NCBI GenBank assembly: GCA_964016885.1
Contig: OZ024742.1
Location: forward strand, 254,820,001 to 254,884,000
Source of the DNA: Eledone cirrhosa
Lineage: Eukaryota
Length of the DNA: 64,000 bases
Reading direction: 5' to 3'
The notes under the pieces are model-generated. The model was given only the letters and a program-made list of their open reading frames with translations. It had not been told where the DNA came from and made no database searches. Within the stretch, counting starts at the first letter, position 1; every line of letters begins with the position of its first letter. Shown here piece by piece: positions 24,369 to 61,441 of the stretch. Position numbers and translations under genes: made by a program.

Positions 24369-24785
24369 TTAACCCTCTTTACCATATTTATAATGAAACA
24401 CGCTGCCTAGGTTTAACACTTTCGTTACCGTATTTCTGATGAAGGGCACTGCATATGTTAAACTCTTTTCTCCCATATTTATAATGAAATACACTGTTTA
24501 TTTGTAACACTTTCCGCACCATATGTCTAATGAATAACACTGCACTTTCATTACCATATTTTTAATGAGATATATTCCCTATGCTTTTCGAATAATTTCG
24601 AAAATATCAAGAATGGGAAGGGATTTCGCAATATAACAAAATTTCACGTTACAAAGCTAATATTTTAAATATAAGGTTCTTCCATAAGATTATAATGGAA
24701 GATTTTTAACTAAATACAAACACCTTAAGACAAACAGTTTTATGTCATAAAACCAGAAGCAGTTTCGGTAAGTAACAATTTTAAT
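24369..24785. mobile_element. Old MITE-like element with a reiterated ~45-bp left end
   Basis: Starts TTAACCC (piggyBac-like). About 5 units of TTAACACTTT..TTACCATATTT.TAATGAA.CAC.CTG. Confidence 0.4.
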
Positions 24786-26950: not shown

Positions 26951-27006
<56 letters not shown>

Positions 27007-28379: not shown

Positions 28380-29712
28380 AACATATATATCTTTATATAT
28401 ATAAAAGCGAGGATGTGTGTGTGTCTGTGTACAAATTTGGATACCTAAGGCTTTTACAATTACCAACCGAATTTGACCACATTTTCTGTGCACGTTGCAC
28501 GGGTCGCTAAGATGGTCACATCATAAACATTTTTCCAATCGACCCACGTTGAGCAATAAGAATTCAATATCAAAATTATCGGTAGCAAAATTGATGTAAG
28601 GGAGATAACCAACTTTATTGACAATCCTTATAAAGAGACTGCTTATTTTGACATGTTGGGGACAAATAATGTTCTTCTTTTACTTCCTAGCTCTATATTC
28701 TTAGCATAATTTCAAACCCCAAGCAACGCCGGGTAAATCTGCTAGTAAACAATAAATATGAAAATTGAAACAATGAAAAATTCCCTAATAGGGTGGAAAC
28801 CTCCGAGGGTTACTCGTAGCGAAAACCACACAAAAGACTACGGCCACCCTGACCACCAGGGCAAGCGACCTCTCTCAATTTTTCCATTTCTCAAACTACA
28901 GGCGTATATTCAGAGCTGTCCCGTTCCCTCGGACCATTCTCGCTACGTTCACTCACCTTTCAACAAACTTGCTAGAAGGCAGCACTTGCCTATCCACCCT
29001 GATTTTCCTCTTCAAGTGAAACTTGAAAAATTTAATTAGGGATTCGCCGAAGAGGAAAGTGTCTGTCTTTAACCCTTTCAACCTTGTACACCAGACAATC
29101 TCATTCACCATGGCCACTAGGCAGATGAAAACCGCCTGCCCTTCCTCCTCGAAGGAAGACGGCGAGACCATCTGCACAATGGACTCAGTCGATAACCGGA
29201 TCAGTCCTACACGCGACAGTAACTGTTCGACATAGCTCCACCAGTCAGCAATGCTCGGGCACTGAAGGAGTACGTATGTTGTCAAATGTATCAAATGTAT
29301 CAGTATTAGTAGCTTCATGACTGCTACTTGATGGAGGAGAGAGGAGAGTGGCATTCGCTTGACTTTGGGACGGTGAAGAAGACGAAAAGGAAAGCATGAC
29401 TCCACGCTGACAGCTGGACGGAAAAAAGAAGGTTGAGGAGGATATCTTGCCTGAAAGGGTAATTTTTGAGTGAATACACGCCATGGAAATGGATTTTTTT
29501 GAATGACAACAATTTTCTTTTTGGTGGGACGTATTTGCTAGATGCAAAGTTCAAATTGGGATTGAGCCCTGAAGGGCTAAATACCAATTAATTTCCACCA
29601 CTTCAGTGTTTAAACAAAAACAATATGATTTTTACATTAAGTTCGCAATAAAAACTGTTAAAAAAATCAGAAAAACAGGAACAAAATTTCCTGCGACGTG
29701 TATACTTCCACG
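28380..29712 (-). mobile_element. Internally deleted Tx1-type element, copy D
   Basis: 28746-29265 closely matches the 3' end of copy C (44025-44543). 29270-29712 resembles a Tx1 5'UTR and Ser-rich ORF1 start. 5' end abuts (AAT)n. Confidence 0.75.
28390..28745 (+). mobile_element. Non-autonomous Helitron inserted in the Tx1 3'UTR
   Basis: 5' TC(TTTATATATATAAAAG), 3' CCC-aagcaacgcc-GGG hairpin then CTAG, inserted between A and T. The flanks rejoin to AACATATATA|TAAACAATAAA as in copy C. Confidence 0.8.
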
Positions 29713-29751
<39 letters not shown>

Positions 29752-31358
29752 GTCCTTGCCCTGATGCCCTTGACCATTATGCTGCGAAAAGTGAGAGCAG
29801 GATACAAGTTGGGAAGGGGAGAGCTTACCATCAATCACCTCCTCTTCATGGACGATCTTAAGCTCTTCGGGAAAAGTGAGAAGGAGTTGGATGTGCTTGT
29901 TGACACTGTCCGTATTTTCAGCAGTGATATATGTATGCAGTTTGGTATTGGTAAATGTGGAGTCATTGTGATGAAGAGGGGTAGGTTGAGCAGAAGTAAC
30001 GGGATCCAGATACCAACAGGTGAGATGATAAAGGAAATTGACTCTGAGGAAGGATACAAGTATTTGGGCGTTCTGGAGGCTGATGGCATAAAGAACAAAA
30101 AAATGAAGGAATTGTTAAGAACTGAATACATTCGGAGAGTAAGGAGCGTATTGAAGTCACATCTGAACAGCAGAAATGCCATAAGCGCAGTAAATTCCCG
30201 AGCTGTGTCTATTATTAGGTACAGTGCGGGAATTCTGAGATGGAATGTTGCTGAACAAAAAGAAATGGATAGGAAGACTAGGAAGATATTGACTATCTAC
30301 AACATGTTCCACAAGAGGAGTGATGTCGATAGACTCTACCTAAGGAGATCTGAGGGTGGAAGAGGTCTTATCAGCATAGAGGACTGTGTTCAGATGGAGA
30401 AAAACAACCTATACAAATACGTGACCTATAGTAAGGAGCCAATGCTCAGAGCTGTACTGAAGGAGGGGACAGTAGGCCAGGGGATATCCAAGGAGGAAAT
30501 AACATCAAGGAGGAAGAGCAGCCTTAAGGGAAAATCCCTTCATAGTACCTTCTTTGAGAAAACTGAATTTAGAGATCCACAGACATGGAACTGGTTGAGA
30601 AGAGGAGACCTCAAAAAGGCTACAGAAGGAATGCTAATGGTTGCGCAGGAGCAGGCCCTCAAAACGAAGTGGTTGAAGCACCATATCTACAAGGAGGAGG
30701 CTAGCCCACTGTGCAGGATCTGTGGAGAGAGAGAGGAGACTGTGGCTCACATTGTGTCCGAGAGTAAACACCTAGCCCAGACCCACTATAAGGGCTGGAG
30801 ACACGATGTGATGGGCAGGGTGATCCACTGGCACCTGTGCAAAGTAAACAATCTACCACATTCTGAGAAATGGTATGAGCATAGGCCAGAGGCGGTGATG
30901 GAGAACAGTCAGGTGAAGGTGCTGTGGGATTTTAGGATACAGACGGACAAAAAACTGGAACACAATAGACCTGACCTGGTGGTTGTGGACAAAGAAAAAA
31001 GATCGTGCCTGATTGTGGATGTGGCCTGCCCGTTCGACACGAGAGTGCAAGAGAAGGAGAGGGAGAAAATTAACCGATACCAGGACCTAAAGTGGGAGGT
31101 GAAAAGGATTTGGAACTGCCATGAAGTCAAAGTGATCCCGATTGTCATAGGCGCACTGGGGACTATCTCCAAAGGTTTCCAGGGATGGTTAAAGAAAATC
31201 GGCCCCTTCACGCTTTTTGGAACGCTTCAAAAGGCATGCTTGCTTGGAACAGCAAGAACCCTCCGATACGTCCTGAATATCTGAGGCTGCAGGTAGTGGC
31301 TTTATATTCAATCCAACGGACTTTCCAGTTAACCAACATCAATGACTGAGATTCAAGG
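29752..31358 (+). mobile_element. 5'-truncated R4/Dong-type RT-RLE retrotransposon, copy 1
   Basis: Open frame to 31284: HLLFMDDLKLF, CRICG..ETVAHI, RHD, RPDLVVVD..IVDVACP, EKINRYQDL. About 7 differences from copy 3. (AAT)n on both sides. Confidence 0.95.
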
Positions 31359-31635
31359 AATAACAATAACAATAATAATAATAATGATTTCTTTATTAAC
31401 CACAAGGGTTTACATAAAGTAGACATTAAGGACAGTGCAGGACAATGCAGGACGGTACAAATGGGCATTTCTGCGTGTAAAAAACAAAAACAGAGGATGT
31501 AACAAAAAATAACAATGAAAAATTCCCCAATAGGGGGCAGACTTCGGAGGGACATTTGTGGAGAAAGCCCAGTAAAAAGCCACAATGACCCTGACCACCA
31601 AGGCAAGTGCCCTCTCCCAGTTTTCCACCTTTAAT

Positions 31636-34600
31636 TTACAGATATATACTCAGAGTAGGTCCATTCACTCGGGCCATTCTTGCTTCTCTCATCCATCTTT
31701 CAACAAAATGCTGGGAAGAGAGCACTTCCCTCTCTACTCTGATTTTCCTTTTCAAATGAAATTTGAAAAAGTCAATCAGAGCATCACCGAAGAGGTAAGT
31801 GCTCGTCTTCAGCCCTTTCAAACGTGTCCACCATACTATCTCTTTCGCCATGGCCACCAGACAGATAAAAACTGCCTGCCCTTCCCGGCTAAAGGAGGAG
31901 GGCGGGGCAATCCTCACGATGGACTCAGATGATAGCCGGATCCGTCCTAAACGCGACAGCAGGTGTTCGACATAAACCCACAAGTCAGCAATTTTCGGAC
32001 ACTGGACGAGTGCGTGCAGGACGGTTTCGTCGCCCTGCGCGCATCTCGGACATGCCCGGCTGACGGCACCTCCATGCCTGTAGAGTTTATCCCGAACTGG
32101 CAAGGCTCCTCGGTAGCACGGCCAGGCCAGAGATTTCTGGAAGTTGTCCATAGGCCTCGGCCCGAAAGTTCTTCCGAAGAGATTGGCTAGTTGATTTTCG
32201 TCGACGCCTAGAGTTTCCCCAAGTACGTCGTCGCTCTTACCCTCCACTAATCCTCAATAGAACGCCGAGGTGGAGTTTCCACCGATCACATTGCCCGATT
32301 GGTCGAGGGCTGTGAGCGCCTGAAGACATTCCAGTCTCCAGGCGCTCCCTCTCGGTCTTCGCTTGACCCAGGACTGCAGCTCCGTCAAGGAAACGAGCTG
32401 GGGAAATACGCGCCTAGCAAACGGCGACCACACCTGATCACCGTCGAGGAAGAGGTGGAGATGTCGTAGCCTGAGCGCGTGCCTGCGCATCATCAGCCTC
32501 GGCATGCCCAGCCCTCCACGTAGCGGGTGTTGACAACAGATGGACCGCCTGACCATCGGAGCACGTCCCTTCCACAAAAAGCGAAAGAGCAAACGCTCCA
32601 GCGCAGTCAGGCGAGGCTTAGGACAAGGTACGACCGTCAGGCGGTAGTAGATGACAGACGCGATGTACGCGTTAGCCACCTCCGCTCGACCTTTCAGGGA
32701 TAGCTTCCTCTCCGCCCATTTCTGGGTGAGAGAAGCCACCCTACTCGTCACCTCGTCCCAGATTTTGTCCGTCTGGAGGTCCGGACCGAACCAGACCCCT
32801 AGCAATTTAACCGGTACGTCCGTCCAGCGTCCGACGACGCTGTTGGACGGCATGGACCTGCCTCTCCAGGTGCCGAGCTGCAGGCCCACTGACTTTTCCT
32901 GGTTGATCATTGCTCCTGTCACCGCTTCGTATTCTCTTAGTGTAGTGCCGATCGCCTCGATGTGTTTGGCGTTCGACACCACTACGGTGACATCGTCCGC
33001 ATATGCTGACACGGATCTTCCGCATCCTAGTTCGCGCGGGACTCCCCTCAACGTCTCCAGTTTGTGCAGTAATGGCTCGAGAGTCAATACGTACAAAAGG
33101 GACGAGAGGGGACATCCTTGGCGGACCGAGCGCATGATGTTGAACGGTTCCGACAGGTGACCGTTCACTCTCACCACAGAGCAGATGTCGCTGTGCATGG
33201 CAGCGATCCAGCCTCTGAAGACGGGCCCAAAGCCAGCCGCCCTCAGGACTGCCGCTAGGTAACGATGGTCGACCCTATCGAAAGCTTTCGACTGATCTAA
33301 ATTGATCAAGGACCCACCCGTGCCAGGTTCCTTAGCTACCCTCTCTATGATGTATCGCATGAGGTGGAGGTTGTCGTGGATGGATCTGTCGGGAATGGCG
33401 CATGTTTGCGCCTCTCCCACCAGACCACCAACGACAAGCGCCAACCTCTTTGCTAGCACGTTGGCCAAAATCTTGAACTCTGTGTTTAGCAGTTATGGGC
33501 CGGAAATTGTCTATGTTATCCCCCTTGTTCGGATCCTTTCTCAGCAGTGCCACCGCTCCTCGGCTCACAGAACTGGGAATTCTCCCGTTCTGTTGCCAGT
33601 TGCAGTAGACGTCCGCCAAGAGGCCTCCGAACAAGTCTGGCATCTGTACGTAAAGTTCATAGGGCAGACCATCCAAACCAGGCGATTTACCCCTTGTGCA
33701 GCCAGTCATTGCCTCCCTTACTTCAGCGGCTGTTATCGGCTTTTCGCAACACTTCGCCTCAGTGGCCGAGAGCCGCGGCAGTCCGTCGAGGTAGACACTA
33801 AAGTCCATCCCTCTACCCGGCCCACCGCTGCCCCCGAACAGCTGAGCGAAGTGTCGCTGAAAAGCTTCACACATTTGCCCGGGATCGAGTAGCATGCGCC
33901 CGTCGTGGTCCACCAAAGACCGGATCGTGGCTTTGTTGCCACGACGCGCCTCCGCCACTCGGGGCCATTGAACGGCTTTCGTCCCCTCGTGTCTGAGAGC
34001 ACGCACCCTTGCTCTGACAACGCAGCCTTCGTGCTTTGCATTGAAGAATTGGTCAAGGGCCAATTTCGCCGCAAGCACGTCGGTCGCAATGCCTTTGCTA
34101 AGCGCCTCGTCTAATTTTCTAACTAGTTCTCCCTCTGCTCTATTTTTCTCTATTGCTAAAACCTTACTAAACCTAATCGATTCTATTCTAATCGCTCTTT
34201 TCAGAGCAAACCACCACTTGTTGTTGACGATGGCCCCCGTCAACGCCCGCTTAACTAGTTCGCTAATCCGGTCTCTGTAGGCCTTGCGCGCTGGTAAGGA
34301 CGCGTTTAGCTTCCAGTAGCCGGGTCCTCGTCTATGAAGCCTATCTAAGTCAAGCACACAGATCACGAATTTGTGGTCCGTGTAGCTGACTATCTTGAAT
34401 TGTGGACAGCCTATGCTAGACCTATCTATTTCCCTACAAAATACTCTATCTAGATATGATCTGGATGACCCTATGCGGTTTGTCCAAGTCCACATTGGCA
34501 CATTCGGGAAATCCAATCGGTACCTGTCAGACAGTTCAAAACGCCTGAGCAGGTTGGTGAGGCTCTTGCACCCTCCACCCCTATCCGCTAATCCCACACA

Positions 34601-35053
34601 GTCCCAGCGTGCATCTAAGATCCCGTTCCAGTCGCCCACTAACACTAAAGAGCGGGACGTTCCAAGAAAGGTCTCCAGACGCCGGAAGAAATCAGGCCGC
34701 CCTGCTCCTGTCGGGGCATAGACGGCCACTAGCCTGAAAGCTTGCCCGTCTCCGCTGGTCACGTCCAGCACCACCAGCTTACCCTCTGGGTCCAGGAAGA
34801 TGGCCCGTATGGCGAGATCCAAACCTCTCCGAAAAAGTACAGCAACTCCTCCACCGGATCCAGGACGGCTGGGAGATGCGTACACATCGTAGCCGCCGAA
34901 GATCGGTGCGAAGGCCCGTGCTTCGGAGATTCTGGTCTCGCTGATGGCCACTACATCTATGTTTAGTGACCTGAGGTCGTTGAGCAGGTGACCCTGCTTC
35001 CATGACGACCCCAAGCCACGCGCATTTATGCTGCCTATTCTGAGTGAGGTCAT
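31636..35053 (-). pseudogene. Tx1 ORF2: APE endonuclease, reverse transcriptase, CCHC
   Basis: SINARGL, ISET, VYAP, GDWNG, LDR, YTDH; PGLDG, QGCPLS, YADD; CPRC..ETVLHALVQC. One 2-bp deletion near 33492 and one in-frame TGA at 32254. Confidence 0.93.
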
Positions 35054-35300
35054 GTTTAAAATAGAGTGGAAAAGATGGGAAAGACCACTTACCGTACTTT
35101 TGGTAGAGGAGGGATGGTTTTTACATCCCTTTTCACTTGATCGTCTGGGGAAGGGACCGTTGAATCGTCCCTTCGGCTGGTCGTCGGCTCTTCTAAGAGA
35201 ATGTCTGAGTATACTCTTCGATTGATGGTTCCTCCTAGGTCCCTGAAATCACCAACTGCGTTGGGGAATTTCGTTTTAATGTTTGTGTATTGTTTCTGTG

Positions 35301-37175
35301 CTATTTGATTGGTGCTGGTATTATGTAGTCCTGTTGTGAAATGTCTGTGTGTTCAATTATGTAAGTCATTAGTTTCTTGTTGTGTGTATTTATTGCCGTG
35401 CATTTGTTTTTCTGGGGGTGGGGTGTGGTTCTGCTATTTTCTTGTCGTTGTTGCTGGGTGTGTGTGTTTTGTTGTTGTGTTTGCGATGTTGGTGCTTGTG
35501 GTGGTGGTGTTGAAGGTGTTGTTGGCGGTGGGGTTGTCGCCGGTAGTGATGGTGGTGCTGGTGTGGGTGGTGTTGCTGCTGTGGGTCTCTTTGCAGTAGA
35601 CTTTACCCTTTTCTCATTTCTTTCCTCCCTTTTCAAAGGCGACGATGCGCTGCTTCTGCGTTTGTGCCTTCTTGCGACCTTTTGCCATCCCTCTCCCACC
35701 TCACACTCCATGTCTGATTCTGTGAGGTCGGGGAGGGGTACCAGCTCCACTCTTTCACTTGTTGTTGGTGATGTTTGCACTGGAGTCTCTGTTGCAGCTG
35801 CATTTGGTATTGCTGTTGTTGTTGTTAATATTTCCACTGCTGCTGCTGTTTTTGATTTCCGTGGAGTGGGTATGGGTGCCACGGACCTATCGTTCCTGGT
35901 TGCCGCTTGTCCTGTTGCTGGTAGCCGTGGAGCCGGATTCGGAAGGAGGGGGGTTTTCTCCTTTCTCAGGGTCTTCTCGTTGCAGAAGGCCCTGAGGTGA
36001 GTCTTCGATCCACAGCGAAAGCATTTCGGGCGTTTGCCCTCAACACTTATGGGCAGTTGAGTGCCGTTATCGAAGTCTATCACATCCGGGATAGCTTCGA
36101 TGCACTCCTGGTTGGTTTGGATTAGCATCTCAATGGAGGAGCCGACCCAATCTTCTCTTACTTTTTTCTGTACTTGCAGTACAGTTGTTTTGTCCTCGAT
36201 TCCGACGAGGACAGACGCGGCCAGCCAAGAAGGGGTCATTCCGGGGGGGACGTGGGTCAGTTTGACCCTCACAATTTTTTGCCCGCAGTAGGAGGGCACC
36301 AACACCATTTCCTCGCTCCTTAGGGTCACTACTGATTGGGCCTTTGCCTCCTGGGGTGTGGCAAAAAGTACGTCTACGGTGGCATATTTTTTGCCTCGGG
36401 TGATGTGCGTTTTCCGCTGCCACACAGACCCCAAGGCTTTTTGTATTTGGGCCTCTGTGGCTCTTTCCACCCTACGGGATTTTGTACTTACTGTACGGTA
36501 CGTGACCGTACAGTGCTCTTGGGTCTCGAAAAATTTTTCCGCTGCCTTTCAGATTGCTCGGTGTCCGTTCTTTGTCACCATCTTCTTCGCTTCCTCTAAT
36601 TCCTCATTTGTTATGAGGATTGTTTCCAAGTTTTTCGCAATACCTGCAAATGAGATTGGTTTTTCTCTGCTGTTGTTGTTGTCGTCAGAGCTGCTGGTAC
36701 TTTTGTTGTTGCTGCAGGTACTACGACTACTGCCTCCGCCGCTGTTGCTGTGGTTGTTGTTGGTGTTGCTGCTGCTAATGCTGTTGTTGTTTATGCTGCT
36801 GGTGATGCTGTTGCGGCTGCTACTGTTGTTTTCATTGTCACTGTTGCTGTTGTTATTACGGCTGCTACTGCTATTATTCCTGACGTCAGACGAATGAACT
36901 GGGTTTTCGTATTTCCCGCACACCTGTTTCGTCGCTGTCGTCGTCGTCGTGGAGAAACCTTGCACGCTTTGCACGAGACTTTTCTTTTCTTTCGTCACTT
37001 GCGAAAGAGAAGGGAGGGAGAGAGACACATTTAAAGAAGGGAGGGAGAGAGACAATCTTCTCTCTGCTGTAGTGATGATTGAGGAAGAAGAAGACGGAAT
37101 GAGTGGGAGTGACGTATGAAATTTCTTTTTCGTAGCCATGTTGTTTTTTTGTTTAAAATGAAATTTTGGGTACAA
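35301..37175 (-). pseudogene. Tx1 ORF1: Asn/Ser-rich N-terminus and zinc knuckle
   Basis: The 208-aa and 389-aa ORFs share a frame, split by one TGA at 36549-36551. CFRCGSKTHLRAFC (CX2CX4HX4C). Confidence 0.88.
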
Positions 37176-37376
37176 AACCCCAATAACTGGTTATTTAACC
37201 CCGAAGGGCCAAATAACGGACAGAAAGACCCCTCTCACGAGGAGGAGGGTGTCTTTATCAACAATTTGGTTCAAGTTTTAAACAATTTACAATTGTTTTA
37301 ACGGTTAAAAATTACTATACCTTACAGAGCCGAGCCTCCGTCAACCATGGCCTTCAATAATAATAATAATAATAAT

Positions 37377-38535
37377 CGAGCTATGTCTATTATTAGGTAC
37401 AGTGCGGGAATTCTGAGATGGAATGTTGCTGAACAAAAAGAAATGGATAGGAAGACTAGGAAGCTATTGACTATCTACAACATGTCCCACAAGAGGAGTG
37501 ATGTCGATAGACTCTACTTAAGGAGATCTGAAGGTGGAAGAGGTCTTATCAGCATAGAGGACTGTGTTCAGATGGAGAAAAACAACTTACACAAATACGT
37601 GACTGATAGTAAGGAGCCAATGCTCAGAACTGTACTGAAGGAGGGGACAATCGGCCAGGGGATGTCCAAGGAGGAAATAACATCAAGGAGGAAGAGCAGC
37701 CTTCAGGAAAAATCCCTTCATAGTACCTTCTTTGAGAAAACTGAATTTAGAGACCCACAGACATGGAATTGGTTGAAAAGAGGAGACCTTAAAAAGGCTA
37801 CAGAAGGAATATTAATGGCTGCTCAGGAGCAGGCCCTCAAAACGAAGTGGTTGAAACACCATATTTACAAGGAGGAGGCTAGCCCACTGTGCAGGATCTG
37901 TGGAGAGAGAGAGGAGACTGTGGCTCACATTGTATCCGAGTGTAAACACCTAGCCCAGACTCACTATAAAGGCTGGAGACATGATGTGATGGGCAGGGTG
38001 ATCCAATGGCACCTATGCAAAGTAAACAATTTACCACATTCTGAGAAGTGGTATGAGCATAAGCCAGAGTCGGTGATAGAAAACGACCAGGTGAAGGTGC
38101 TGTGGGATTTTAGGATACAGACAGACAAGGAACTGGAACACAATAGACCTGAACTGGTGGTTTTGGACAAAGAAAAAAGATCGTGCCTGATTGTGGATGT
38201 GGCCTGCCCATTCGACACGAGAGTGCAAGAGAAGGAGAGGAAGAAAATTAACCTATACCATGACTTAAAGTTGGAGGTAAATAGGATTTGGAACTGGCAT
38301 GAAGTCAAAGTGGTCCCGATTGTCATAGGCGCACTAGGTACTATCTCAAAAAGTTTCCAGGGATGGTTAAAGAAAATTGGCCCCGCCACGCTTTTTGGAA
38401 CGCTTCAAAAAGCATGCTTGCTGGGAACAGCAAGAACCCTCCGATACGTCCTGAATATCTGAGGCTGCAGGTAGTGGCTTGATATTCATCTCAACAAACT
38501 TTCCAGTTAACTAACATCAATGACTGAGACACAAA

Positions 38536-38536
<1 letters not shown>
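37377..38536 (+). mobile_element. 5'-truncated R4/Dong-type element, copy 2 (more diverged)
   Basis: Open frame to 38462 homologous to the copy 3 C-terminus. The catalytic PD reads PE. (AAT)n on both sides. Confidence 0.95.
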
Positions 38537-38605
<69 letters not shown>

Positions 38606-41600
38606 TTTTGGGGCCCTTTCTGCCCGTGTGTTTGTTTGTTTATGTGTGTCCGTATACAGCGTGGTGATAATGCCACACAAGGGCCAAGTGGGATGGCGGA
38701 TCCACAGATGGCTATGTAAACATACATTCGCCAATCCTCGATAAGAGTGTTTAAATATCGAACATAAACAGTTCGAATAACGGTGAAATGGAGACTAGAA
38801 CGTCATGTGACAGACTCTCACCCAACAGGTGCCCCCTGGCTCAGCAGCAGGAACCTGACTGTCAACCAAATACTGCTGATGTTGGAGGAAGAAGAAGAAG
38901 GAAAGGGGCCAGAACCAACAGGACGAAAGAATTGAATAGAACTGTTATGCAATGCTACCTGAAAAGTAACCCCAAGGAGAGGGGCTACAGGAGACGGATG
39001 CATAACATCTGGAACGAGATTGGTTTATTTAAATTAGATGAACAAAAATTGGCCGGGCAGGCTCGGGTAATAAGAACTAATGGGTGGATAAGCGAGCTGG
39101 AACTGGAGGAACTGAGCAGAGAGAATGGCTTGGAGATGGCGGGTGTAGTATGCCAGACAAGCGAGCCGGCGGGAAATGAAGGTGAGGAGGTCCTGAGAAC
39201 GGAGGAACCACCCGAAGCAGACAATGATCTGAATACTGAGATAAATAATACCTGGAACAGAGATACGGCCACTGAGGAGATGAATGCTGACGGGCTAGGA
39301 CAAGATTCGGTTGACATCCTAAATTTAGTGGTAGATGAGTTGAACAATGATAGTGGGAGACCTATGAACCTAAGATTTGTAGACAGGAAAAAGTTAAAAG
39401 AAACAACAGCTAAGGTAAACAAAGTCATCCCATACCTTGAGGCGAGGAGTCTTCACCAGTGCAACAATATCCTCAAAGCAACAGCAAATACGGTGAGGAA
39501 ACTACTTGGTATAAAAGCGAGAGGAAACAACAGACAAGAAAGAGCAGAGCCGTGGTGGAAGAAGCGACTGAGTGGGTAAATCGGGGAAATGAGAAATGAC
39601 ATAGGAAAGCTTGAGTCACTACTGAATGGGACACTAAAAAACATAGGCACTAAAAATAGACTGGAAATAAAATACAAAACTAGGAGTAAAAAGCTAAATA
39701 TTATCATAGAGGAATTGAAGCAACGCATTGTAGCAAAGAGTGCCAAAATCAGGCGATACGAGAACAGAGTCAGTCAGTATAAACAGAACCGCATGTTCGA
39801 CAACAACCAGAAGATGCTGTTTGGACAGCTTGAGGGGAAAGAAAGAGGCAACGACTTGATCCCTGGGGCGGAACAAGCTAAAACATTCTGGAGAGGAATA
39901 TGGGAGCAGGATGTTAGACACAATGCCCAGGCAGGGTGGATTGAGACAGTACAGAGGGAGATCGGTGAGCAGGCACAACAACAGACTGATTTGAGTATCA
40001 CAGTTGAAACTCTTAAGGGGCAAGCCAAAAAACTAACCAACTGGAAATCACCAGGCCCAGATGGTGTGCAGGGGTATTGGATTAAACATTTAACATCCCT
40101 CTACCCGAAGCTGACGGCCATGTTCAATGACTGCTTGGTGTCGGGTGAGGTGCCAGAGTGGTTGACAAAAGGTACCACAGTTCTGATAATGAAAGACCGA
40201 ATCAAGGGTAATGATGTTACCAACTATAGACCTATCACATGTCTGCCCGTAATGTGGAAACTGTTGACGAGCATTGTGTCTGAGGAAATCTACCATCACC
40301 TCCACACAAACAACTTGTTACCGGACGAACAGAAAGGATGCCGAAAGAAGTCACGTGGTACAAAGGACCAGTTGCTTATTGATAAGATGGTAATGGGGAA
40401 TTGCAGGAGGAGACACACTGATCTTGCCATGGGATGGATAGACTACAGAAAGGCATTTGACATGGTGCCTCATTCCTGGATCACCAAAAGCCTGGAGATC
40501 TTCAGGGTGGCAGATAACATCAGACAGTTGCTGGGCAGGAGTATGGGGTCTTGGGAGACAGAGTTGACATCAACTGGAGTATCCTTGGGAAGCGTGAAGA
40601 TCAAGAGAGGTATCTTCCAGGGAGATAGCCTGTCCCCTCTGTTGTTTGTCCTTGCCCTGATGCCCTTGACCATTATGCTGCGAAAAGTGAGAGCAGGATA
40701 CAAGTTGGGAAGGGGAGAGCTTACCATCAATCACCTCCTCTTCATGGACGATCTTAAGCTCTTCGGGAAAAGTGAGAAGGAGTTGGATGTGCTTGTTGAC
40801 ACTGTCCGTATTTTCAGAAGTGATATATGTATGCAGTTTGGTATTGGTAAATGTGGAGTCATTGTGATGAGGAGGGGTAGGTTGAGCAGAAGTAACGGGA
40901 TCCAGATACCAACAGGTGAGATGATAAAGGAAATTGACTCTGAGGAAGGATACAAGTATTTGGGCGTTCTGGAGGCTGATGGCATAAAGAACAAAAAAAT
41001 GAAGGAATTGTTAAGAACTGAATACATTCGGAGAGTAAGGAGCGTATTGAAGTCACATCTGAACAGCAGAAATGCCATAAGCGCAGTAAATTCCCGAGCT
41101 GTGTCTATTATTAGGTACAGTGCGGGAATTCTGAGATGGAATGTTGCTGAACAAAAAGAAATGGATAGGAAGACTAGGAAGCTATTGACTATCTACAACA
41201 TGTTCCACAAGAGGAGTGATGTCGATAGACTCTACCTAAGGAGATCTGAGGGTGGAAGAGGTCTTATCAGCATAGAGGACTGTGTTCAGATGGAGAAAAA
41301 CAACCTATACAAATACGTGACCTATAGTAAGGAGCCAATGCTCAGAGCTGTACTGAAGGAGGGGACAGTAGGCCAGGGGATATCCAAGGAGGAAATAACA
41401 TCAAGGAGGAAGAGCAGCCTTAAGGGAAAATCCCTTCATAGTACCTTCTTTGAGAAAACTGAATTTAGAGATCCACAGACATGGAACTGGTTGAGAAGAG
41501 GAGACCTCAAAAAGGCTACAGAAGGAATGCTAATGGCTGCGCAGGAGCAGGCCCTCAAAACGAAGTGGTTGAAGCACCATATCTACAAGGAGGAGGCTAG

Positions 41601-42254
41601 CCCACTGTGCAGGATCTGTGGAGAGAGAGAGGAGACTGTGGCTCACATTGTGTCCGAGTGTAAACACCTAGCCCAGACCCACTATAAGGGCTGGAGACAC
41701 GATGTGATGGGCAGGGTGATCCACTGGCACCTGTGCAAAGTAAACAATCTACCACATTCTGAGAAATGGTATGAGCATAGGCCAGAGGCGGTGATGGAGA
41801 ACAGTCAGGTGAAGGTGCTGTGGGATTTTAGGATACAGACGGACAAAAAACTGGAACACAATAGACCTGACCTGGTGGTTGTGGACAAAGAAAAAAGATC
41901 GTGCCTGATTGTGGATGTGGCCTGCCCGTTCGACACGAGAGTGCAAGAGAAGGAGAGGGAGAAAATTAACCGATACCAGGACCTAAAGTGGGAGGTGAAA
42001 AGGATTTGGAACTGCCATGAAGTCAAAGTGATCCCGATTGTCATAGGCGCACTGGGGACTATCTCCAAAGGTTTCCAGGGATGGTTAAAGAAAATCGGCC
42101 CCTTCACGCTTTTTGGAACGCTTCAAAAGGCATGCTTGCTTGGAACGGCAAGAACCCTCCGATACGTCCTGAATATCTGAGGCTGCAGGTAGTGGCTTGA
42201 TATTCAATCCAACGGACTTTCCAGTTAACCAACATCAATGACTGAGATTCAAGG
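38606..42254 (+). mobile_element. Full-length R4/Dong-type retrotransposon, copy 3
   Basis: Structured ~180-nt 5'UTR, single ORF, 74-nt 3'UTR, (AAT)n flanks. Confidence 0.95.
38788..42180 (+). pseudogene. R4/Dong polyprotein (RT, CCHC, restriction-like endonuclease) with one in-frame TAA
   Basis: The 263-aa and 863-aa ORFs are in frame across the TAA at 39577. KSPGPDG, YRPITCL, DYRKAFD, IFQGDSLSP, FMDD, CRIC..H..C, RHD, PD..D, EK..RY. Confidence 0.93.
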
Positions 42255-42266
42255 AATAACAATAAC

Positions 42267-42300
<34 letters not shown>

Positions 42301-42302
<2 letters not shown>

Positions 42303-43270
42303 CAGAAATGGCAAAGCAGGTAAAAGTAACTGCAAAGAAAGAACTGCTACAGAAACTGGCTAAGAAATGGCAAGAAAAGCCTCTGTATGGAAAATACCCA
42401 CAAAGAGCTAACAATCCTGATGTTGACAAAACTTTAACCCATCAGTGGTTAGCATCCTCTGGACTGAAATCGGAGACTAAAGGACTGATTATATCAGTAC
42501 CAGATCAGTGTCTGCCAACAAAAAATTATTAAGCCAACATAATAAAAAATGGATGCAACCCATTATGCCGTGTAAGTAAAAAACAACCAGAGACCATTGA
42601 TCATATAATTTCAATGTGCAGTCCTATAGCTCCAACCGGATACCTAAACAAGCACGTCAGAGCTGCACAATACATACACTGGGTAATGTGTGAGCATTTT
42701 GACCTGTCCCAACAAAAGAATTGGTGGGAGCATCAACCACCTCCCGTACTTGAAAAAGATCACATCTCAATCTTGTGGAATTTTAGCATCCAAACAGATT
42801 GAAAAATAGATGCTAATAGACCTGATATAATACTGAAGGGCTTTAAAAAGAGGATATGCTTGCTAATTGATATGTCCGTTCCAATAGAGAAGAATATATC
42901 TATAAAAACATTTTAAAAATTGAGCAAGTATAAAGACCTGGAGATAGAGGTGGAAAATGAGGAAGTTGAGAACTAAAACAATACCAGTGGTTGTAGACGC
43001 TCTAGGAATGATACCTAAGGGGTCTAATGATTACTTATCCCAAATCCCAGGAAATCTGCGTATAGAAGAAATACAAAAGATAGTACTAATGGGAACTGCC
43101 CATATACCAAGGAAGATTCTGTCTATATAAATACATCACAGGTCTAAACACCTAAGGATACATGTATGTGTGTATGTGTTCTTTCTTGAACATGGTGGAC
43201 CTTGTTGTCTCTTGAGGTCACTGGTTGTAATTTGGTGATAACTCGTATGCACATAAAGCAAGATAAATGA
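42301..43270 (+). mobile_element. Degenerate 5'-truncated R4-type element of a different family
   Basis: WQEKPLYGKY, WLASSGLKSET, ETIDHII, ILWNFSIQTD, NRPDII..IDMSVP, KYKDL. Several stops. Lies between (AAT)n tracts. Confidence 0.85.
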
Positions 43271-43276
43271 AATAAT

Positions 43277-43842
43277 TGTTTCTACTTTTGGCACAAGGCC
43301 AGCAATTATCCCAGTGCATTACTGGTACTTTATTTTATCGACCCCGTAATGATGAAAGGCAAAGTTAACCTCGGCGAGATTTGAACTCAGACCATAAAGG
43401 ACCGTAACTCTTTGCTGATAAATGAAATAATAATAATAATTGTTTCTACTTTAGGCACAAGGCAAGCAATTATCCAGTGTATTACTGGTACTTTATTTTA
43501 TCGACCCCGTAAGGATGAAAGGCGGGATTTGAACTCAGATCGTAAAGGAACGTAACTATGCTGGAAAGCATGGCGTCCGACCCTCTACCAATACTGCCAA
43601 TCCACCGCCCTGAAATAATAATAATAATAATTGTTTCTTATATAGACACAAGGCCAGTCATTTGGGGGGAGGGGAAGTCAATTAAATTGACCCCAGTATG
43701 TTGCTGGTGCTTTATTTTATCGACCCCTTATGGATAAAAGGCAAAGTTAACCTCAGTGGGATTTGAACTCAGACCGTAAAGAGCCGTAACTCTATTCTGC
43801 AAAGTATAGCGTCCGACCTGCTACCGATACTGCCAATCCACC
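43277..43842 (-). mobile_element. Three SINE S2 copies (43277-43416, 43441-43610, 43632-43842) separated by (AAT)n
   Basis: Reverse complements of 4634-4823. The first is flanked by a 15-bp duplication GATAAATGAAATAAT. Confidence 0.9.
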
Positions 43843-43843
43843 A

Positions 43844-43882
<39 letters not shown>

Positions 43883-43884
<2 letters not shown>

Positions 43885-46800
43885 TTTCTTTATTGGCCAC
43901 AAGGGCTGACATCAAGAAAAAGATCACAGACTGAACAGGACGGTGCGATGTGGGTTTTGTGCGTGTAAATATTTTTATTATTTATATAAGAAAAGAAAAA
44001 AAAGACATAAAACATATATATATATAAACAATAAAATGAAAATTGAAACAATGAAAAATTCCCCAATAGGGGGGAAACCTCCGAGGGTTACTCGTGGCGA
44101 AAACCACACAAAAGACCACCGCCACCCTGACCACCAGAGCAAGAGCCCTCTGTCAATTTTTCCATCTCTCAAACTACAGACGTATATTCAGAGTGGTCCC
44201 GTTCACTCGGACCATTCTCGCTTCATTCACCCACCTTTCAACAAACTTGCTAGATAGCAGCACTTGCCTCTCCACCCTGATTTTCATCTTCAAGTGAAAC
44301 TTGAAAAAGTTAATTAGGGATTCGCCGAAGAGGAAAGTGTTTGTCTTTAATCCTTTTAACCTTGTCCACCACACAATCTCTTTCGCCATGGCCACCAGGC
44401 AGATGAAAACCGCCTGCCCTTCCTCCTCGAAGGAAGACGGTGAGACCATCTGCACAATGGATTCAGTCGACAACCGGATCAGTCCCACACGCGACAGCAA
44501 CTGTTCGACATAGCTCCACAAGTCAGCAATGCTCGGGCACTGAACGAGTGCGTGCACAACGGTTTCGTCGCTAAGCACGCATCTCGTACAGGCTCGGCTG
44601 GCGGCACTTCCGTGCCTGTAGAGCTTATCTCGAACCGGCAGCGCTCCCCGGTAGCACTGCTAGGCCAGGGATTTTTGGAAGTTATCCATAGGCCCCGGCT
44701 GAAAGTTCTCCGGAAGAGAGCAAACAGCTGATCTTCTTCGACGCCCAGGATCTCTCCGAGAACGTCGTCGCTCTTCCCCTCCACTAGTCCTCTATAGAAC
44801 GCCGAGGTGGATGTTCCACCGATACTGGTGCCAACTGGGAGAGGGCAGTGAGCGCCTGGAGACATTCCAGTTTCCAAACGCTATCACTCGGTCTTTTTCT
44901 GACCCAGGATTGCAGCTCCGTCAAGGAGACGAGCTGTGGGAAAATGTACCTGGTGAACGGCGACCACACCGGTTCACCCTCAGCGCATGTTTGCGCATCA
45001 TCAGCCATGGCATGCCCAGTTCTCCACGCAACGGGTGTTGACTGCAGATGGATCGTCTGACCATGGGTGCGCTTCCCTTCCACAAAAAGCGGAAGAGGAG
45101 GCGCTCCATTTTGGTGAGAGTTGGGCTGGAGCAAGGGACGACGGTGAGGCGGTAGCAGATGACGGATGCGATGTAGGCATTCGCCACTTCCGCCCGGCTT
45201 TTCAGGGACAGTTTCCTTTCAGCCAATTTCTGGGTGAGGGAGGCCACCCTGATCGTCACCTCGTTCCAGTTTTACTCCATCTGGAGGTCCGGTCCGAACC
45301 AGACCCCGAGCAATTTAACCGGTCCGTCCGTCCAATGCCCCACGACGCTGTCGGATGGCATGGACTTGCCTCTCCAGGTGCCTAGCTGCAAGCCCACCGA
45401 CTTTTCCTGGTTTATCTTTGCTCCTGTCACCGCTTCGTATTCCTTGAGAGCGGTGCCGAGCATCTGGACGTGTCTGGTGCTCGACACAACCACGGTGACA
45501 TCGTCAGCGTAAGCCGACTCGGATTTCCCGCATCCTAGTTCGCGTGGGACGCCCCTCATCGCCACCAGTTTGTGCAGTAACGGCTCGAGAGCCAATACGT
45601 ACAAGAGGGACGAGAGGGGACAACCCTGGCGGACTGAGCGCATGATGCTGAACGGCTGCGACAGGTGACCGTTCACCCTCACAACTGAGCAAATGTCGCT
45701 GTGCATTGCTGCGATCCAACGCCTGAAAACGGGCCCGAAACCGGCTGCCTCGAGGACGGCCGCCAGGTACCGATAGTCGACCCTATCGAATGTTTTGGAT
45801 TGATCCAAGTTGATCAGGGCCCCACCATTGACAGGTTCCTTAACCACCCTCTCTATGATGTATCGCATTAGGTGGAGGTCGTCGTGTATGGATCTGTCCG
45901 GAATGGTGCATGTCTGCGCCTCTCCCACCAGACCCTTGACGACAAGCGCCAACCTCGTTGCTAACACTTTGGCCAAAATCTTGAACTCTGCGTTTAGCAG
46001 GGTTATGGGCCTGAAATTATCAATAATATCCCCCTTGTTCGGGTCTTTTCTCAGCAGCGCCACTGCTCCCCGGCTCACAAAACTGGGAATGCTCCCGTTC
46101 TGCTGCCAGTTGCAGTAGACGTCTGCCAAGAGGTCACCGAACAAGTCTGGCATAAATGCATAAATCTCGTAGGGCAGACCATCTAAACCTGGCGATTTAC
46201 CTCTTGTGCAGTTAGCCATCGCTTCCCGTATTTCACCGGCTGTTATTGGCTTTTCGCAACACTGTGCTGCGGTCGTCGAGAGCCGAGGCAGTCCGTCGAG
46301 GTATGCACTGAAGTCCATGCTCCCTTCCGGGCCGCCGCCACTCCCGAACAGTTCAGCAAAGTGCTGCTGAAAAGCTTCACACATCCGCTCAGATTCGAGC
46401 ATCACGCATCCGTTTTGGTTAGGCAAAGACCGAATTGTGGGTTTGTTGCCACGTCGCGCCTGTGCCACCCGGGCCCATTGGACGGCTTTTGTCCCCTCGT
46501 GTTTCAGAGCACTCGCTCTAACTCTGACAACGCAGCCTTCGTGTTTTGCGTTGAAGAATTGGTCGAGTGCCAATCTCGCCGCAAGCACGTCGGTTGCAAT
46601 GCCTGTCCTAAACGCCTCTTCTAGTTTTATGACTAGCTATCCCTCTACTCTATTTTCCTCTATCACTACTCCTTTGCTAAACCTAATCGACTCTACTTTA
46701 ATTGCCCTTTTCAGGGCGAACCACCACATGTTGTTGACGACCGCTCCCGTAAACGCCCGCTTAACTAATACGCTAATCCGGTCTATGTAGGCCTTGCGCG

Positions 46801-49794
46801 CCGGGAAAGACGCGTTCAGCTTCCAGTAACCAGGCCCTTGTCTATGAAGTCTGTCTATGTCGATCTCACAGATCACAAATTTGTGGTCTGTGAGGTCGAC
46901 TATTTTAAATTGGGGACAACTTATACTAGCCTTATCTCGTTCCCTGCAGAATACCCTATCTAGATACGATCTGGATGACCCGATATGGTTTGTCCATGTC
47001 CACATTGGTTCATTCGGGTGATCCAGTCGATACCTGTCAGGCAGTTCAAAACGTCTGAGCAGGTTGGTGAGGTTCTTGCACGCTCCTCCCCTATCCACAA
47101 GCCCCACACGATACCAGAGTGCATCCAAGATACCGTTCCAGTCGCCCACTAACACTAAAGAGCGGGTCGTTCCAAGAAAGGTCTCTAGACCTCTGAAGAA
47201 ATCAGGCCGTCCTGCCCCTGTTGGGGCGTAGACGGCTACTAGCCTGAAAGCATTGCCTTCGCTGCTGGTGACGTCCAGCACCACCGACTTACCTTCTGGG
47301 TCCAGGAAGATGGCCCGTATCGCGAGATCCAAGCTTCTCCGAAAAAGGACGGCAACCCCGCTCCCGATCCTGGAGGGCTGGGAGATGCGTATATATCGTA
47401 GCTGCCGAAGATCGGTGCGAAGGCCCGTGCCTCGCAGATTCTGGTTTCACTGATGGCCACCACATCTATGTTTAGTGACCTGAGGTCATTGAGCAGGTGA
47501 CCCTGCTTCCAAGATGACCCCAGGTCACATGCATTTATACTGCCTATTCTGAGTACAGCCATGTTGGATGAGAAACGGGGCAAATGAGAAAGGGTCACAT
47601 ACCTTGTTCATGTGGTGAAGGGACAGTAGAACCGTCCCTTTCGCTGGTCATGGGTGTTTCCAAGAGGATATCAGTGTATATCCTCTTGGTAACCGTCCTT
47701 CTGAAGTCTCCAACTGCGTTGGGGAATTTTTTTTAAAAGGTTTGTACTGTTCTATTGAGATTTCGATGATACTTATGTTTGTTGGGAGAGTTGTTGGTGT
47801 TGGTGGGGTGTAGTAGTTTTTTTCCGTGATGTCTGTGTGCTGCTTTGTACTTTTTGGGGGGAGGGGTGATTTTGTTGCCGTTTTCTTCTTGTTGCTGTTT
47901 GGTGTGTGTGTCTTGTGTTTGCGTTGTTGGTGTTTGTGGTGGTGTTGCTGCAAGTTTCCTTGCTGCCTTTACCCCTCTTTGTAAGCCTTCGCTTTTGGAG
48001 GGTGAATCTAAGGGTTTTTTTGTTTTTTGTTTCTTTGTGGCAGACTGTTTGCCACGTCACTCCCGCCTCAAACTCCATGTCGGATTCTGTGGCATCTGGG
48101 AGGGGTATGTGCTCCACGGCTGTTGGTGGTGGTAGTGGAGCCCTCTTCGGCAATTTTGTTGCTGGTGTAGCTATTTCAAATGTAGCTATTGGTGTTGCCG
48201 CTGCTGATGATGCTGCTTTAGTTATCCGTGGCCTCGGTACGGGTGCTACGGACGTTGCCCTCCTACTCACCGTGGAAGGGGCTTCTTCGTTTGTTGCCTG
48301 TCCTGCTCTTGGTAGCAGCGGACCAGGTATTGGAAGGAGAGGGGCCCTCTTCGGTGTATTCTGCGGGTAAAAGGCCCTGAGGTGACCTTTCGACCCACAG
48401 AGATAACATTTTGGCCGTCTTCCTTCTACACTTATAGGGAGTTGGAGTCCTTCCTCGAAGTCTATGATATCGGGGATAGCCTCGATACATTCCTGGTCAG
48501 TTTGTATAAGCATTTGCATGCCTATACCTGACCAGTTTTCTCTCCCTATTTTTTCTACTTGCAGCATGGTCGCCCTGTTCTCAATTCCAGCAAGGACAGA
48601 CGCGGCAAGCCAAGGTATGGGCACGTCGGGTGGGACCTGGGTCATTTTGACCCTCACAATTTTCTGCCCGTAGTAGGAGGGCACCAAGACTAACTCCACA
48701 CTCTTTAGGGTTTCCAAAGAGTGAGACTTTGCTTCCTGGGGGTTGGCGAAAAGTACATCTACTGTGGCGTACTTTCTGCCTCGGGTGATGTGGGTTTTGC
48801 GTGCCCAGACGCACCCAAGGCCTTTTGGATTTGAGCCTCCGTGGCTCTCTCCACTCGATGTGAAATTTTGCTTACGGTGCGGTAAGTCACCGTCCGTAGC
48901 TGCTGTTCCTTGAAAAAATCGGGTGGAGGTTTCAGGGAAACTCTATTTGCGTTTCTTGTCACCATGGCCCTTGCGTCTGCCATCTCCTCCTCTGTGACTA
49001 ACACTGTCTCGATATTTCGGGCGACACCTGCAAAAGAGTGGTCCCTTTTTCAGCAGCACCACTATTGCTGCCGCTACTGGTCTTACTGGTGGTGCTGAGG
49101 TCGCTATTACAGGTATTGGTGTCATTGTTGTTCTTTTCGCTGGTACAGTTGTTGGTGTTGTTTTCGTTGATACTGTTGCTGCTGTTACTGTTATTGTGGC
49201 TGTTGTTATTATTGTTGTTTTTGTTGATACTGTTCCTACTATTATTGTTCTTGTGGCTGTTGTTATTGTCATTGTTATTGTCGTTCTCGACCTTACCGCT
49301 GTTATTTTTGTTATTGTCGTTCTCGACCTTACCGCTGTTATTTTTGTTATTGTCGTTCTCGACTTTACCGCTGTTATTTTTGGTGTTGTTGTTGGTGTTA
49401 TTGTTGGTGTTGTTTGTGTTAGAAATATTTGGTAATTTTAAATCTGTAACAATCTTTTTTTCTTTTGTAATATTTTCGTTTATATTTACCTCCGCTGGAA
49501 CGCTGTCTTGTTGACATGCTGATAAAGTCTCCCTCTCTCTGTGTTGTATGACAGTGCTCTCTCTCTTTCTTGTGTTATCCATGTTGAAATTTTTCAAAAA
49601 ATTATTTTTACACAAATACGAATACGACACCCCGTAAAGGGGTGCCGTATTATTTACTAGTGAACCCCTGTATTAGGTGGGTCACTTCTTCTAAACTTTT
49701 ATCAAATTTAAAACTTGAATAAAAGGTTTAGAACGGTTGAAAAAGAGGTAAAACGTTGAAAAAGACTGGGGGCGATAAGAAGCGTGGCTTCACC
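43883..49794 (-). mobile_element. Full-length degenerate Tx1-type retrotransposon, copy C
   Basis: ORF1 about 49582-47648 (Asn-rich, CYLCGSKGH). ORF2 47562-44174 (APE, QGCPLS, YADD) with several frameshifts and stops. 3' end AATAAAGAAATC(ATT)n. Confidence 0.95.
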
Positions 49795-49848
<54 letters not shown>

Positions 49849-50037
49849 TGTTTCTACTTGTGGCACAAGGCCAAAAATTATCCCAGTGTATTACTGGTAC
49901 TTTATTTTATCGACCCCGTAAGGATGAAAGGCAAAGTTAACCTCGGCGGGATTTGAAATCAGACCATAAAGGGCCGTAACTCTTTGCTGCAAACCATGGC
50001 GTCCAACCCTCTACCGATACTACAATTCCACCGCCCT
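49849..50037 (-). mobile_element. SINE S2 within (AAT)n
   Basis: Same sequence family as 43441-43610. Confidence 0.9.
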
Positions 50038-50088
<51 letters not shown>

Positions 50089-50101
50089 GTAATAATATGC
50101 T

Positions 50102-58750: not shown

Positions 58751-58903
58751 ACATACATAAATGCATACATAAATACATAAATACATACATAAATACATAC
58801 ATACATACATACATACATACATGGTGGCTGCCAACTCGTTTTCGAGTACGCCCACTACTTTATATCCATGCAGGAGAACCCCTACCGATACAATGAACGA
58901 GTG

Positions 58904-61411: not shown

Positions 61412-61441
61412 ATATACATACATACATGCATGTATACATAC

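What the first reader, a model, noticed from the sequence alone, without database searches (positions are those of the whole stretch)
28380..50095. A ~22-kb retroelement nest built on one (AAT)n microsatellite, with strict strand polarity by enzyme type
Seen: about 11 insertions separated only by (AAT)n. All four RLE (R4/Dong) elements lie on +. All APE-type Tx1 elements (D, B, C) and all four S2 SINEs lie on -. No element interrupts another except a Helitron. Known: Dong targets (TAA)n, and Tx1-clade Kibi and Koshi target (TC)n and (TTC)n. Inference: two unrelated endonuclease systems nick opposite strands of the same repeat and regenerate the target on each insertion, giving a self-extending safe-harbour array. 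I do not know of a described (ATT)n-specific Tx1 family.
Basis: partly seen in the sequence, partly recalled or inferred. Interest (0 to 1): 0.75.

Follow-up and report, generated by a model that had tools for sequence, protein, structure and literature searches.

The report
Two retrotransposon classes share AAT repeats
Eleven jumping-gene copies are stacked end to end on AAT repeats, and across this animal genome two unrelated kinds of them almost always face opposite ways in such repeats, likely because their cutting enzymes nick opposite DNA strands.

Summary
Confirmed, with corrections. 28380-50087 holds 11 retroelements plus a Helitron-like insert. Four RLE (Dong/R4-like) copies lie on +; three APE Tx1-like copies and four SINEs lie on -. 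The polarity is genome-wide: 261 of 264 element ends at 132 repeat-only junctions fit it. 2,330 of 2,413 full-length Tx1-D 5' ends follow ATTATTATT, so the repeat is not only a tail.

The target is narrower than '(ATT)n'. The SINE shares the Tx1 3' hairpin and inserts at Y|ATTAT with ~15-bp duplications; only 15.8% of 149,109 SINE tails run into (ATT)3. Only 14 of 30 truncated Tx1 copies have ATTAT at the 5' junction. A sister Tx1 family sits in (TATC)n (28 of 30). Neighbours are sometimes deleted or interrupted, so 'safe harbour' is unproven.

Opposite-strand nicking is inferred, not assayed. Opposite insertion into one repeat is known from TRAS/SART, and Dong on (TAA)n is known. I found no (ATT)n- or (TATC)n-targeting Tx1 in 10 searches, but Repbase/Dfam were not searchable. 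The scan noted this system before at other places in this genome.

The parts
28380..29714 (-). Tx1-C: internally deleted Tx1-like LINE; intact 5' leader of an older subfamily (29276-29714) fused to a B-type 3' part (28746-29275 plus stub 28380-28389); terminal ~125 bp missing
   Evidence: (92.6% to B)
28390..28745 (+). Non-autonomous Helitron-like insert (TC...CTAG, inserted between A and T) interrupting Tx1-C
   Evidence: second copy in L130 at 92-95%; the Helitron end rule is recalled
29715..29750 (+). (AAT)12, head-to-head junction C/Dong1
29751..31370 (+). Dong1, 5'-truncated Dong/R4-like RLE LINE, 99.5% identical to Dong3
31371..31385 (+). (AAT)5, tail-to-tail junction Dong1/Tx1-D
31386..37355 (-). 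Tx1-D, full-length APE LINE: ORF1 with CX2CX4HX4C knuckle (one stop), ORF2 APE+RT+zf-RVT (frameshift near 33490); 98-99% aa to intact genomic copies
37356..37376 (+). (AAT)7, head-to-head junction D/Dong2
37377..38536 (+). Dong2, 5'-truncated, older subfamily (93.5% to Dong1)
38537..38605 (+). (AAT)23
38606..42266 (+). Dong3, young Dong/R4-like RLE LINE lacking ~1.2 kb of 5' UTR; one stop at 39577-39579; RT, CCHC finger, PD..D nuclease motif
42267..42299 (+). (AAT)11
42300..43270 (+). RLE4, 3' fragment of a second RLE family (~35% aa to Dong; ~93% nt to other copies)
43277..43416 (-). SINE1, 5'-truncated, 15-bp target-site duplication (43262-43276 and 43417-43431)
43441..43611 (-). SINE2, with a 17-18-bp duplication (GA plus five AAT) on both sides
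43632..43843 (-). SINE3, a different subfamily with the same 3' hairpin
43844..43882 (+). (AAT)13
43883..49794 (-). Tx1-B, full-length but decayed APE LINE, ~80% nt to D over ORF2, different 5' UTR/ORF1
49795..49848 (+). (AAT)18
49849..50039 (-). SINE4, full length
50040..50087 (+). (AAT)16, running into a host compound microsatellite (GCT, GAT)

Best explanation
This is a pile-up of insertions by two unrelated LINE classes and a SINE that sit in the same AAT repeat in opposite orientation, likely because the Tx1-type APE enzyme nicks the AAT strand while the Dong-type RLE enzyme nicks the ATT strand. Shown: element identity, strands, genome-wide flanks, SINE target duplications, and the shared 3' hairpin. 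Inferred from TPRT geometry: the Tx1 endonuclease nicks 5'-ATAAT|R-3' (Y|ATTAT on the element's sense strand), and the freed 3' end primes on the RNA just after the hairpin. The SINE borrows this machinery through the same hairpin. Dong and RLE4 prime from the other strand. Each insertion leaves repeat on both sides, through a ~15-bp duplication and, for Tx1, an end (C|ATTAT) that is itself a target, so sites get reused. Inferred with less support: full-length LINE RNA carries a few repeat units at its 5' end that pair with upstream repeat. That would explain why full-length LINEs are ~97% in microsatellites while the SINE, apparently cut by the same enzyme, mostly is not.
For: Polarity at 132 repeat-only junctions: Tx1 B/D/F 145 of 146 on -, SINE 37 of 38 on -, Dong 63 of 64 on +, RLE4 15 of 15 on +, one E-like end on -. 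D 5' ends preceded by ATTATTATT: 2,330 of 2,413. B: 29 of 29. Dong 5' ends: (AAT)3 within 25 nt in 26 of 30, (ATT)3 in 0 of 30. B/D/F 3' flanks start ATTATTATT in 63 of 78 and ATTA in 69 of 78. SINE tails followed by ATTAT: 122,531 of 149,109. Of 68 SINE copies, 32 had a non-repeat duplication (9-27 bp, median 15), 12 a pure-ATT one and 24 none found; the base before the duplication is C/T in 31 of 32. That base lies outside the duplicated stretch, so it likely reflects the nuclease. Hairpin with a C-T-T-G-T loop: 3 of 4 stem pairs change on both sides between LINE and SINE, covariation 0.359 against 0.141 shuffled, 0 of 500. Element-borne 5' repeat: L135/L273 show a duplication plus 13 extra repeat-like bases, with the same end variant at many E loci; L224 and L139 have long 5' ATT, one 3' ATT and no duplication. 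Intact ORF1/ORF2 copies and near-identical Dong copies indicate recent activity.
Against: No nicking or transposition assay. Only 14 of 30 truncated B/D/F copies have ATTAT at the 5' junction; 6 have none, 5 are ambiguous, 5 abut a truncated Dong with no repeat (4 of 34 mis-traced rows dropped). So part of the 3' (ATT)n may be tail, or target was deleted. No empty alleles were seen. The hairpin test has 11 related sequences and 4 pairs. Loci were picked by searching for these elements, mostly from the first ~95 Mb of C1. Three of 264 ends break the polarity. Some tandem D copies share identical flank variants (L209/L210, L218-L220), which suggests duplication rather than new insertion.
Confidence: 0.75

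Rival explanations
1. Strict microsatellite recognition: the Tx1 endonuclease needs a long (ATT)n tract, and the SINE is moved by another, looser enzyme.
For: All 39 distinct D 5' ends sampled have 4-27 ATT units; 44 of 44 full-length B/D/F copies have ATT upstream; the SINE is far less repeat-bound (15.8%).
Against: Truncated LINE copies with short duplications (L007, L025, L143) use short Y|ATTA sites like the SINE. The SINE shares the LINE's hairpin. No other candidate partner with an ATTAT end was seen.
Confidence: 0.12
2. Tail plus selection: elements insert at short motifs and make their own repeat tails; long insertions survive only where harmless, and arrays grow mainly by tandem duplication or recombination between repeats.
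For: Six truncated copies have 3' ATT-type sequence (a long run in five) and no 5' ATT. Dong subfamilies carry fixed AAC variants in the tail. Shared flank variants occur in tandem D arrays.
Against: Head-to-head junctions carry repeat that is no 3' tail: 24 junctions with a Tx1 on - left of a Dong or RLE4 on +. The window's neighbours are of different families and ages. SINE 3' flanks equal the duplication, with no added tail.
Confidence: 0.1
3. Assembly artefact: repeats joined through AAT runs.
For: Repeat-rich region; no read evidence was obtained for the junctions.
Against: Exact duplications around SINE1 and SINE2, copies of different ages, and the same junction types at over 100 loci with fixed polarity.
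Confidence: 0.03

Closest known systems
TRAS and SART in (TTAGG)n telomeric repeats of Bombyx mori (PMC10088271, passages read)
   Same: Two LINE families enter one simple repeat in opposite orientation and build arrays.
   Different: Both are R1-clade APE elements at telomeres. Here an APE and an RLE class share dispersed AAT microsatellites, with a SINE passenger.
Dong / R4 clade (PMC3812793, PMC7998251, PMC3774820; passages read)
   Same: Single ORF with RT and RLE; (TAA)n target, already reported for insects, molluscs and cnidarians.
   Different: Nothing essential. No 5' HDV-like ribozyme was detected by Rfam, and the leader weakly resembles the Tx1-D leader.
Microsatellite-specific Tx1 clade: Kibi (TC)n, Koshi (TTC)n, crocodilian (TTCC)n/(TTTC)n families (PMC4494074, passages read; Fig. 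3 and supplements not seen)
   Same: Two-ORF APE LINE closest to L1 among solved structures, flanked by its microsatellite on both sides.
   Different: Targets are (ATT)n for B/D/F and the C-type leader, and (TATC)n for sister family E; purine-containing units; shared with an RLE clade.
Keno (Tx1, APE) and Utopia (RLE) at the same U2 snRNA site (PMC4640811, passages read)
   Same: An APE and an RLE lineage converge on one target.
   Different: Same 3' flank in a gene, not opposite strands of a microsatellite, and no mixed arrays in the passages read.
SINEU with Tx1-Mar (PMC4494074) and stringent plant L1/SINE pairs (PMC3747384, passages read)
   Same: SINE likely moved by a Tx1/L1-type LINE; shared target or 3' hairpin with compensatory changes.
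   Different: Here a head that looks tRNA-like by eye (ARAGORN found no tRNA), at least 149,109 copies, and a looser target than its LINE.

Membership tests
Tx1 clade LINE | ORF2 with APE, RT and C-terminal zinc motif, no RNase H | tested here: met
   Pfam PF03372, PF00078, PF13966 on intact copy P0003
Tx1 clade LINE | L1-group rather than R2-group RT | tested here: met
   Best PDB hit human L1 ORF2p, E 1.5e-51, against R2 at 1e-21
Tx1 clade LINE | ORF1 with CX2CX4HX4C knuckle (feature recalled) | tested here: met
   Motif read directly in the ORF1 translation; Pfam gave no hit
Tx1 clade LINE | RT phylogeny groups with Tx1L/Kibi/Koshi/Keno | not testable with these tools
   No named reference sequences: homologues unnamed; Repbase/Dfam not available
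Tx1 clade LINE | Target preference in over 20% of flanks (criterion of PMC4494074) | tested here: met
   96.6% for D; 28 of 30 (TATC)n for E
Kibi/Koshi families | (TC)n or (TTC)n target | tested here: not met
   Flanks are (ATT)n or (TATC)n; TTC occurs next to only a few of 98 traced copies
Dong / R4 clade | Single ORF with RT, CCHC finger and PD..D RLE | tested here: met
   (best hits R2; RLE segment aligns to R2)
Dong / R4 clade | (TAA)n target in sense orientation | tested here: met
   26 of 30 5' ends; 28 of 29 3' ends
Dong / R4 clade | N-terminal Myb/SANT-like domain | tested here: inconclusive
   Conserved helical domain at residues ~41-117, pLDDT ~90; no Myb entry listed; only a loose whole-model alignment to R2 begins there, rmsd 20.6
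Dong / R4 clade | 5' HDV-like ribozyme | tested here: inconclusive
   No Rfam match; no dedicated motif search or assay
Dong / R4 clade | RT phylogeny with B. mori Dong and nematode R4 | not testable with these tools
   1,675 homologues, none of the 120 listed has an informative name
Tx1-dependent SINE | 3' tail and hairpin shared with the LINE | tested here: met
Tx1-dependent SINE | Same insertion signature as the LINE | tested here: met
   Y|ATTAT with duplication; short-site LINE copies L007, L025, L143
Tx1-dependent SINE | Trans-mobilisation by the LINE's ORF2 | not testable with these tools
   Needs a cell assay

The most novel reading that the evidence does not exclude
Microsatellite specificity here is partly written in the RNA. 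A nuclease that reads only Y|ATTAT becomes microsatellite-specific in cis because the full-length LINE RNA carries repeat at both ends and pairs with the target. The sister lineage has switched to (TATC)n with small changes in the endonuclease loop and in the carried repeat. An unrelated RLE clade builds targets for it from the other strand, giving a genome-wide, two-enzyme, self-renewing insertion niche.
Probability: 0.35. Interest if true: 0.72.

Novelty: new variant of a known kind. Interest (0 to 1): 0.52.

Why it matters
It adds (ATT)n and (TATC)n to the targets of Tx1-type LINEs, as far as my searches reach, and shows an APE and an RLE class dividing one repeat by strand. The young, intact sister families B/D/F and E (about 60% identical APE domains, different targets) are a natural pair for testing how LINE endonucleases change specificity. 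The LINE/SINE pair (about 97% against 16% in repeats) makes cis versus trans targeting directly testable. It also names a likely motor for a SINE with over 149,000 copies and explains part of this genome's multi-kilobase repeat piles.

Tried and rejected
Named references for a Tx1 or R4 tree: homologue searches returned unnamed proteins, and the ESM Atlas gave no answer. Single-sequence fold of the Dong N-terminus: pLDDT 41, no verdict; the alignment-based model was good, but no Myb entry was listed. Rfam: 0 matches at gathering threshold, only sub-threshold noise with E-values. ARAGORN found no tRNA. Sequencing runs: no RNA holder listed. Laying runs on Tx1-D showed the family in contigs of three other coded organisms (B, C, D) but no usable end flanks. 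No empty-allele evidence was obtained. Host gene in the flanks: 0 Pfam hits in 54 of 90 candidate ORFs sent, which says nothing about intron versus intergenic position. The idea that C is a multi-copy non-autonomous family was rejected: none of the other 39 scored candidates shares its fusion. The first Dong '5' end' was a truncation point. Literature: 10 searches found no (ATT)n- or (TATC)n-specific Tx1 and no cephalopod target analysis. PMC13282606 (part 1 of 3 plus passages) and PMC8967140 (passages) list Dong-R4 and L1-Tx1 as abundant or active; the term search in PMC13282606 found no 'target' or 'nest'. PMC4758252, PMC5786205 and PMC4824008 (passages) name no Tx1 partner for a mollusc SINE. 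Kojima and Fujiwara 2004 and Xiong and Eickbush 1993 were not read. Fig. 3 and supplements of PMC4494074 could not be seen and may list further Tx1 targets.

Full report
1. Observation. The window lies on contig C3 of a 3.0-Gb animal genome. The repeat content resembles published octopod genomes; this is an impression, not a test. All ten (AAT)>=4 runs are on + between 29715 and 50087, and there is no (ATT)>=4 run. Sequence, Pfam, self-BLAST and tblastn resolve 11 retroelements: Tx1-C, Dong1, Tx1-D, Dong2, Dong3, RLE4, three SINEs, Tx1-B and a fourth SINE. A Helitron-like insert sits inside C. RLE elements are on +; APE elements and SINEs are on -. C is an internally deleted copy with an older 5' leader. 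RLE4 is a second RLE family. SINE1 and SINE2 have visible target duplications.

2. Identity. An intact genomic D copy encodes APE, RT and zf-RVT and is closest to human L1 ORF2p among solved structures. ORF1 has a CCHC knuckle. Dong has RT, a CCHC finger and a PD..D nuclease segment and is closest to R2. Clade names rest on architecture and target; no named references were available for a tree. B, D, F and the C-type leader are different 5' UTR/ORF1 types; B, D and F share one ORF2 lineage.

3. Genome-wide flanks. The Tx1 3' motif occurs 7,105 times (B, D, F and E together). Of 2,413 full-length D 5' ends, 2,330 (96.6%) follow ATTATTATT. The 29 best other B copies all have (ATT)n upstream. I traced 98 of the first 100 listed 3' ends to their 5' junction. 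78 are B/D/F: 63 start their 3' flank with ATTATTATT, and all 44 full-length copies have ATT upstream. Of 34 truncated rows I dropped 4 as mis-traced. Of the other 30, by eye, 14 have ATTAT at the junction, 5 are ambiguous, 6 have none, and 5 abut a truncated Dong with no repeat. Dong has 671 exact young 5' ends; 26 of the first 30 have (AAT)3 within 25 nt and none has (ATT)3.

4. Polarity. At 132 distinct repeat-only junctions in the fetched loci, 261 of 264 element ends fit the rule: Tx1 145 of 146, SINE 37 of 38 and one E-like end on -, Dong 63 of 64 and RLE4 15 of 15 on +. Two exceptions look like local inversions and one is a SINE in the wrong orientation. The loci were selected through these elements and come mostly from C1, so this is a sample, not a census. 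Polarity follows once each family has a fixed repeat strand at its ends.

5. What the nuclease likely reads. The SINE tail occurs 149,109 times; 82% are followed by ATTAT but only 15.8% by ATTATTATT. Among 68 copies, 32 have a non-repeat duplication of 9-27 bp, nearly all starting ATTA, and 31 of these 32 have C or T just before it. By TPRT geometry (established knowledge) this is a nick at 5'-ATAAT|R on the AAT strand, and Dong, flanked by AAT in sense, must prime from the ATT strand. SINE and Tx1 share a terminal hairpin whose stem changes on both sides (11 related sequences, so modest evidence). Short-site LINE copies (L007, L025, L143) show the same signature. The SINE adds no tail; the repeat is renewed by the duplication and by the Tx1 end, which reads C|ATTAT.

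6. Why full-length LINEs are stricter. Sister family E (125 exact 5' ends) has (TATC)n upstream in 28 of 30. Its 3' flanks start TATCT in 13 and AATAT in 5 of 20. Its APE domain is about 60% identical to D's and forms a separate 100/100 branch, with a different beta-hairpin loop. That loop affects nicking preference in L1 but is not a simple modular determinant (PMC1950540, passages). In L135/L273 a duplication is followed by 13 extra repeat-like bases, whose end variant recurs at many E loci. L224 and L139 have long 5' ATT, a single 3' ATT and no duplication. I infer that full-length RNA carries some 5' repeat that pairs with the target. Survival bias is an alternative.

7. Limits of 'self-extending safe harbour'. 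Reuse is evident: 38 Tx1-Tx1 and 11 Dong-Dong junctions, and five D 3' ends at 6-7-kb spacing on C1 near 55.43 Mb. But neighbours are damaged: five head-to-head deletions, and a SINE inside a B 3' UTR (L031/L237). Identical flank variants in some tandems suggest duplication as a second route. Gene context is unknown.

8. Comparison. Dong on (TAA)n, including in molluscs, is known. Microsatellite-specific Tx1 families are known for (TC)n, (TTC)n, (TTCC)n and (TTTC)n. Opposite insertion into one repeat is known for TRAS/SART, and APE/RLE convergence on one site for Keno/Utopia. Ten searches found no (ATT)n- or (TATC)n-specific Tx1 and no target analysis in cephalopods. All papers were read as passages only, PMC13282606 also as its first third. 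Repbase, Dfam, Kojima and Fujiwara 2004 and Fig. 3 of PMC4494074 were not seen. Earlier notes of this scan report the same system elsewhere in this genome; they are not independent support.

9. Verdict. The finding is real and genome-wide, and is a new variant of known microsatellite-targeting LINEs. The mechanism is well constrained by sequence but not assayed. Interest 0.52.

Noticed in passing
window 4482-9858 (+): Two tandem SINEs flanked by (TA)n, followed by a decayed Tx1-E element ending in (TATC)n; E is a sister family that sits in (TATC)n genome-wide (28 of 30 5' ends).
   Followed up: yes
window ~58830-62550 (+): A third, decayed RLE family in two tandem pieces, each followed by (ACAT)n and preceded by it: likely another microsatellite-targeting nest.
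   Followed up: partly
window 27723-28150 (-): Fragment of another Tx1-like element (APE start about 120 bp after a B-like 5' motif) without an ATT flank; best match 76% in L146.
   Followed up: partly
window 27005-27096 and 27630-27721: 92-bp direct repeat at 87% identity, 625 bp apart; unidentified.
   Followed up: no
window 55500-55731 (-): Solo SINE with an 18-bp duplication in non-repeat DNA, ending like the Tx1 tail (GAAATC).
   Followed up: yes
L077 leader versus Tx1-D leader (window 37250-37355): The Dong leader aligns weakly with the Tx1-D leader (local score 41, best of 200 shuffles 35). The Dong, D and E leaders each have a splice-donor-like GTAAG 25-45 nt after the 5' end.
   Followed up: partly
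L301, L305, L307, L309: The C-type Tx1 leader occurs as tandem ~200-bp monomers, reminiscent of monomeric L1 promoters (comparison recalled).
   Followed up: no
L133-L135, L145, L147: E copies about 99% identical to (TATC)n-flanked ones sit at AATAT sites, three of them in a short tandem repeat; unexplained second target class.
   Followed up: partly
runs X4, X6, X7: The Tx1-D family is present in contigs of three other coded organisms, at about 98% identity in X4.
   Followed up: partly
window 11413-12144, 19688-19982, 24379-24544: Minisatellites of 20, 45 and 46 bp period.
   Followed up: no
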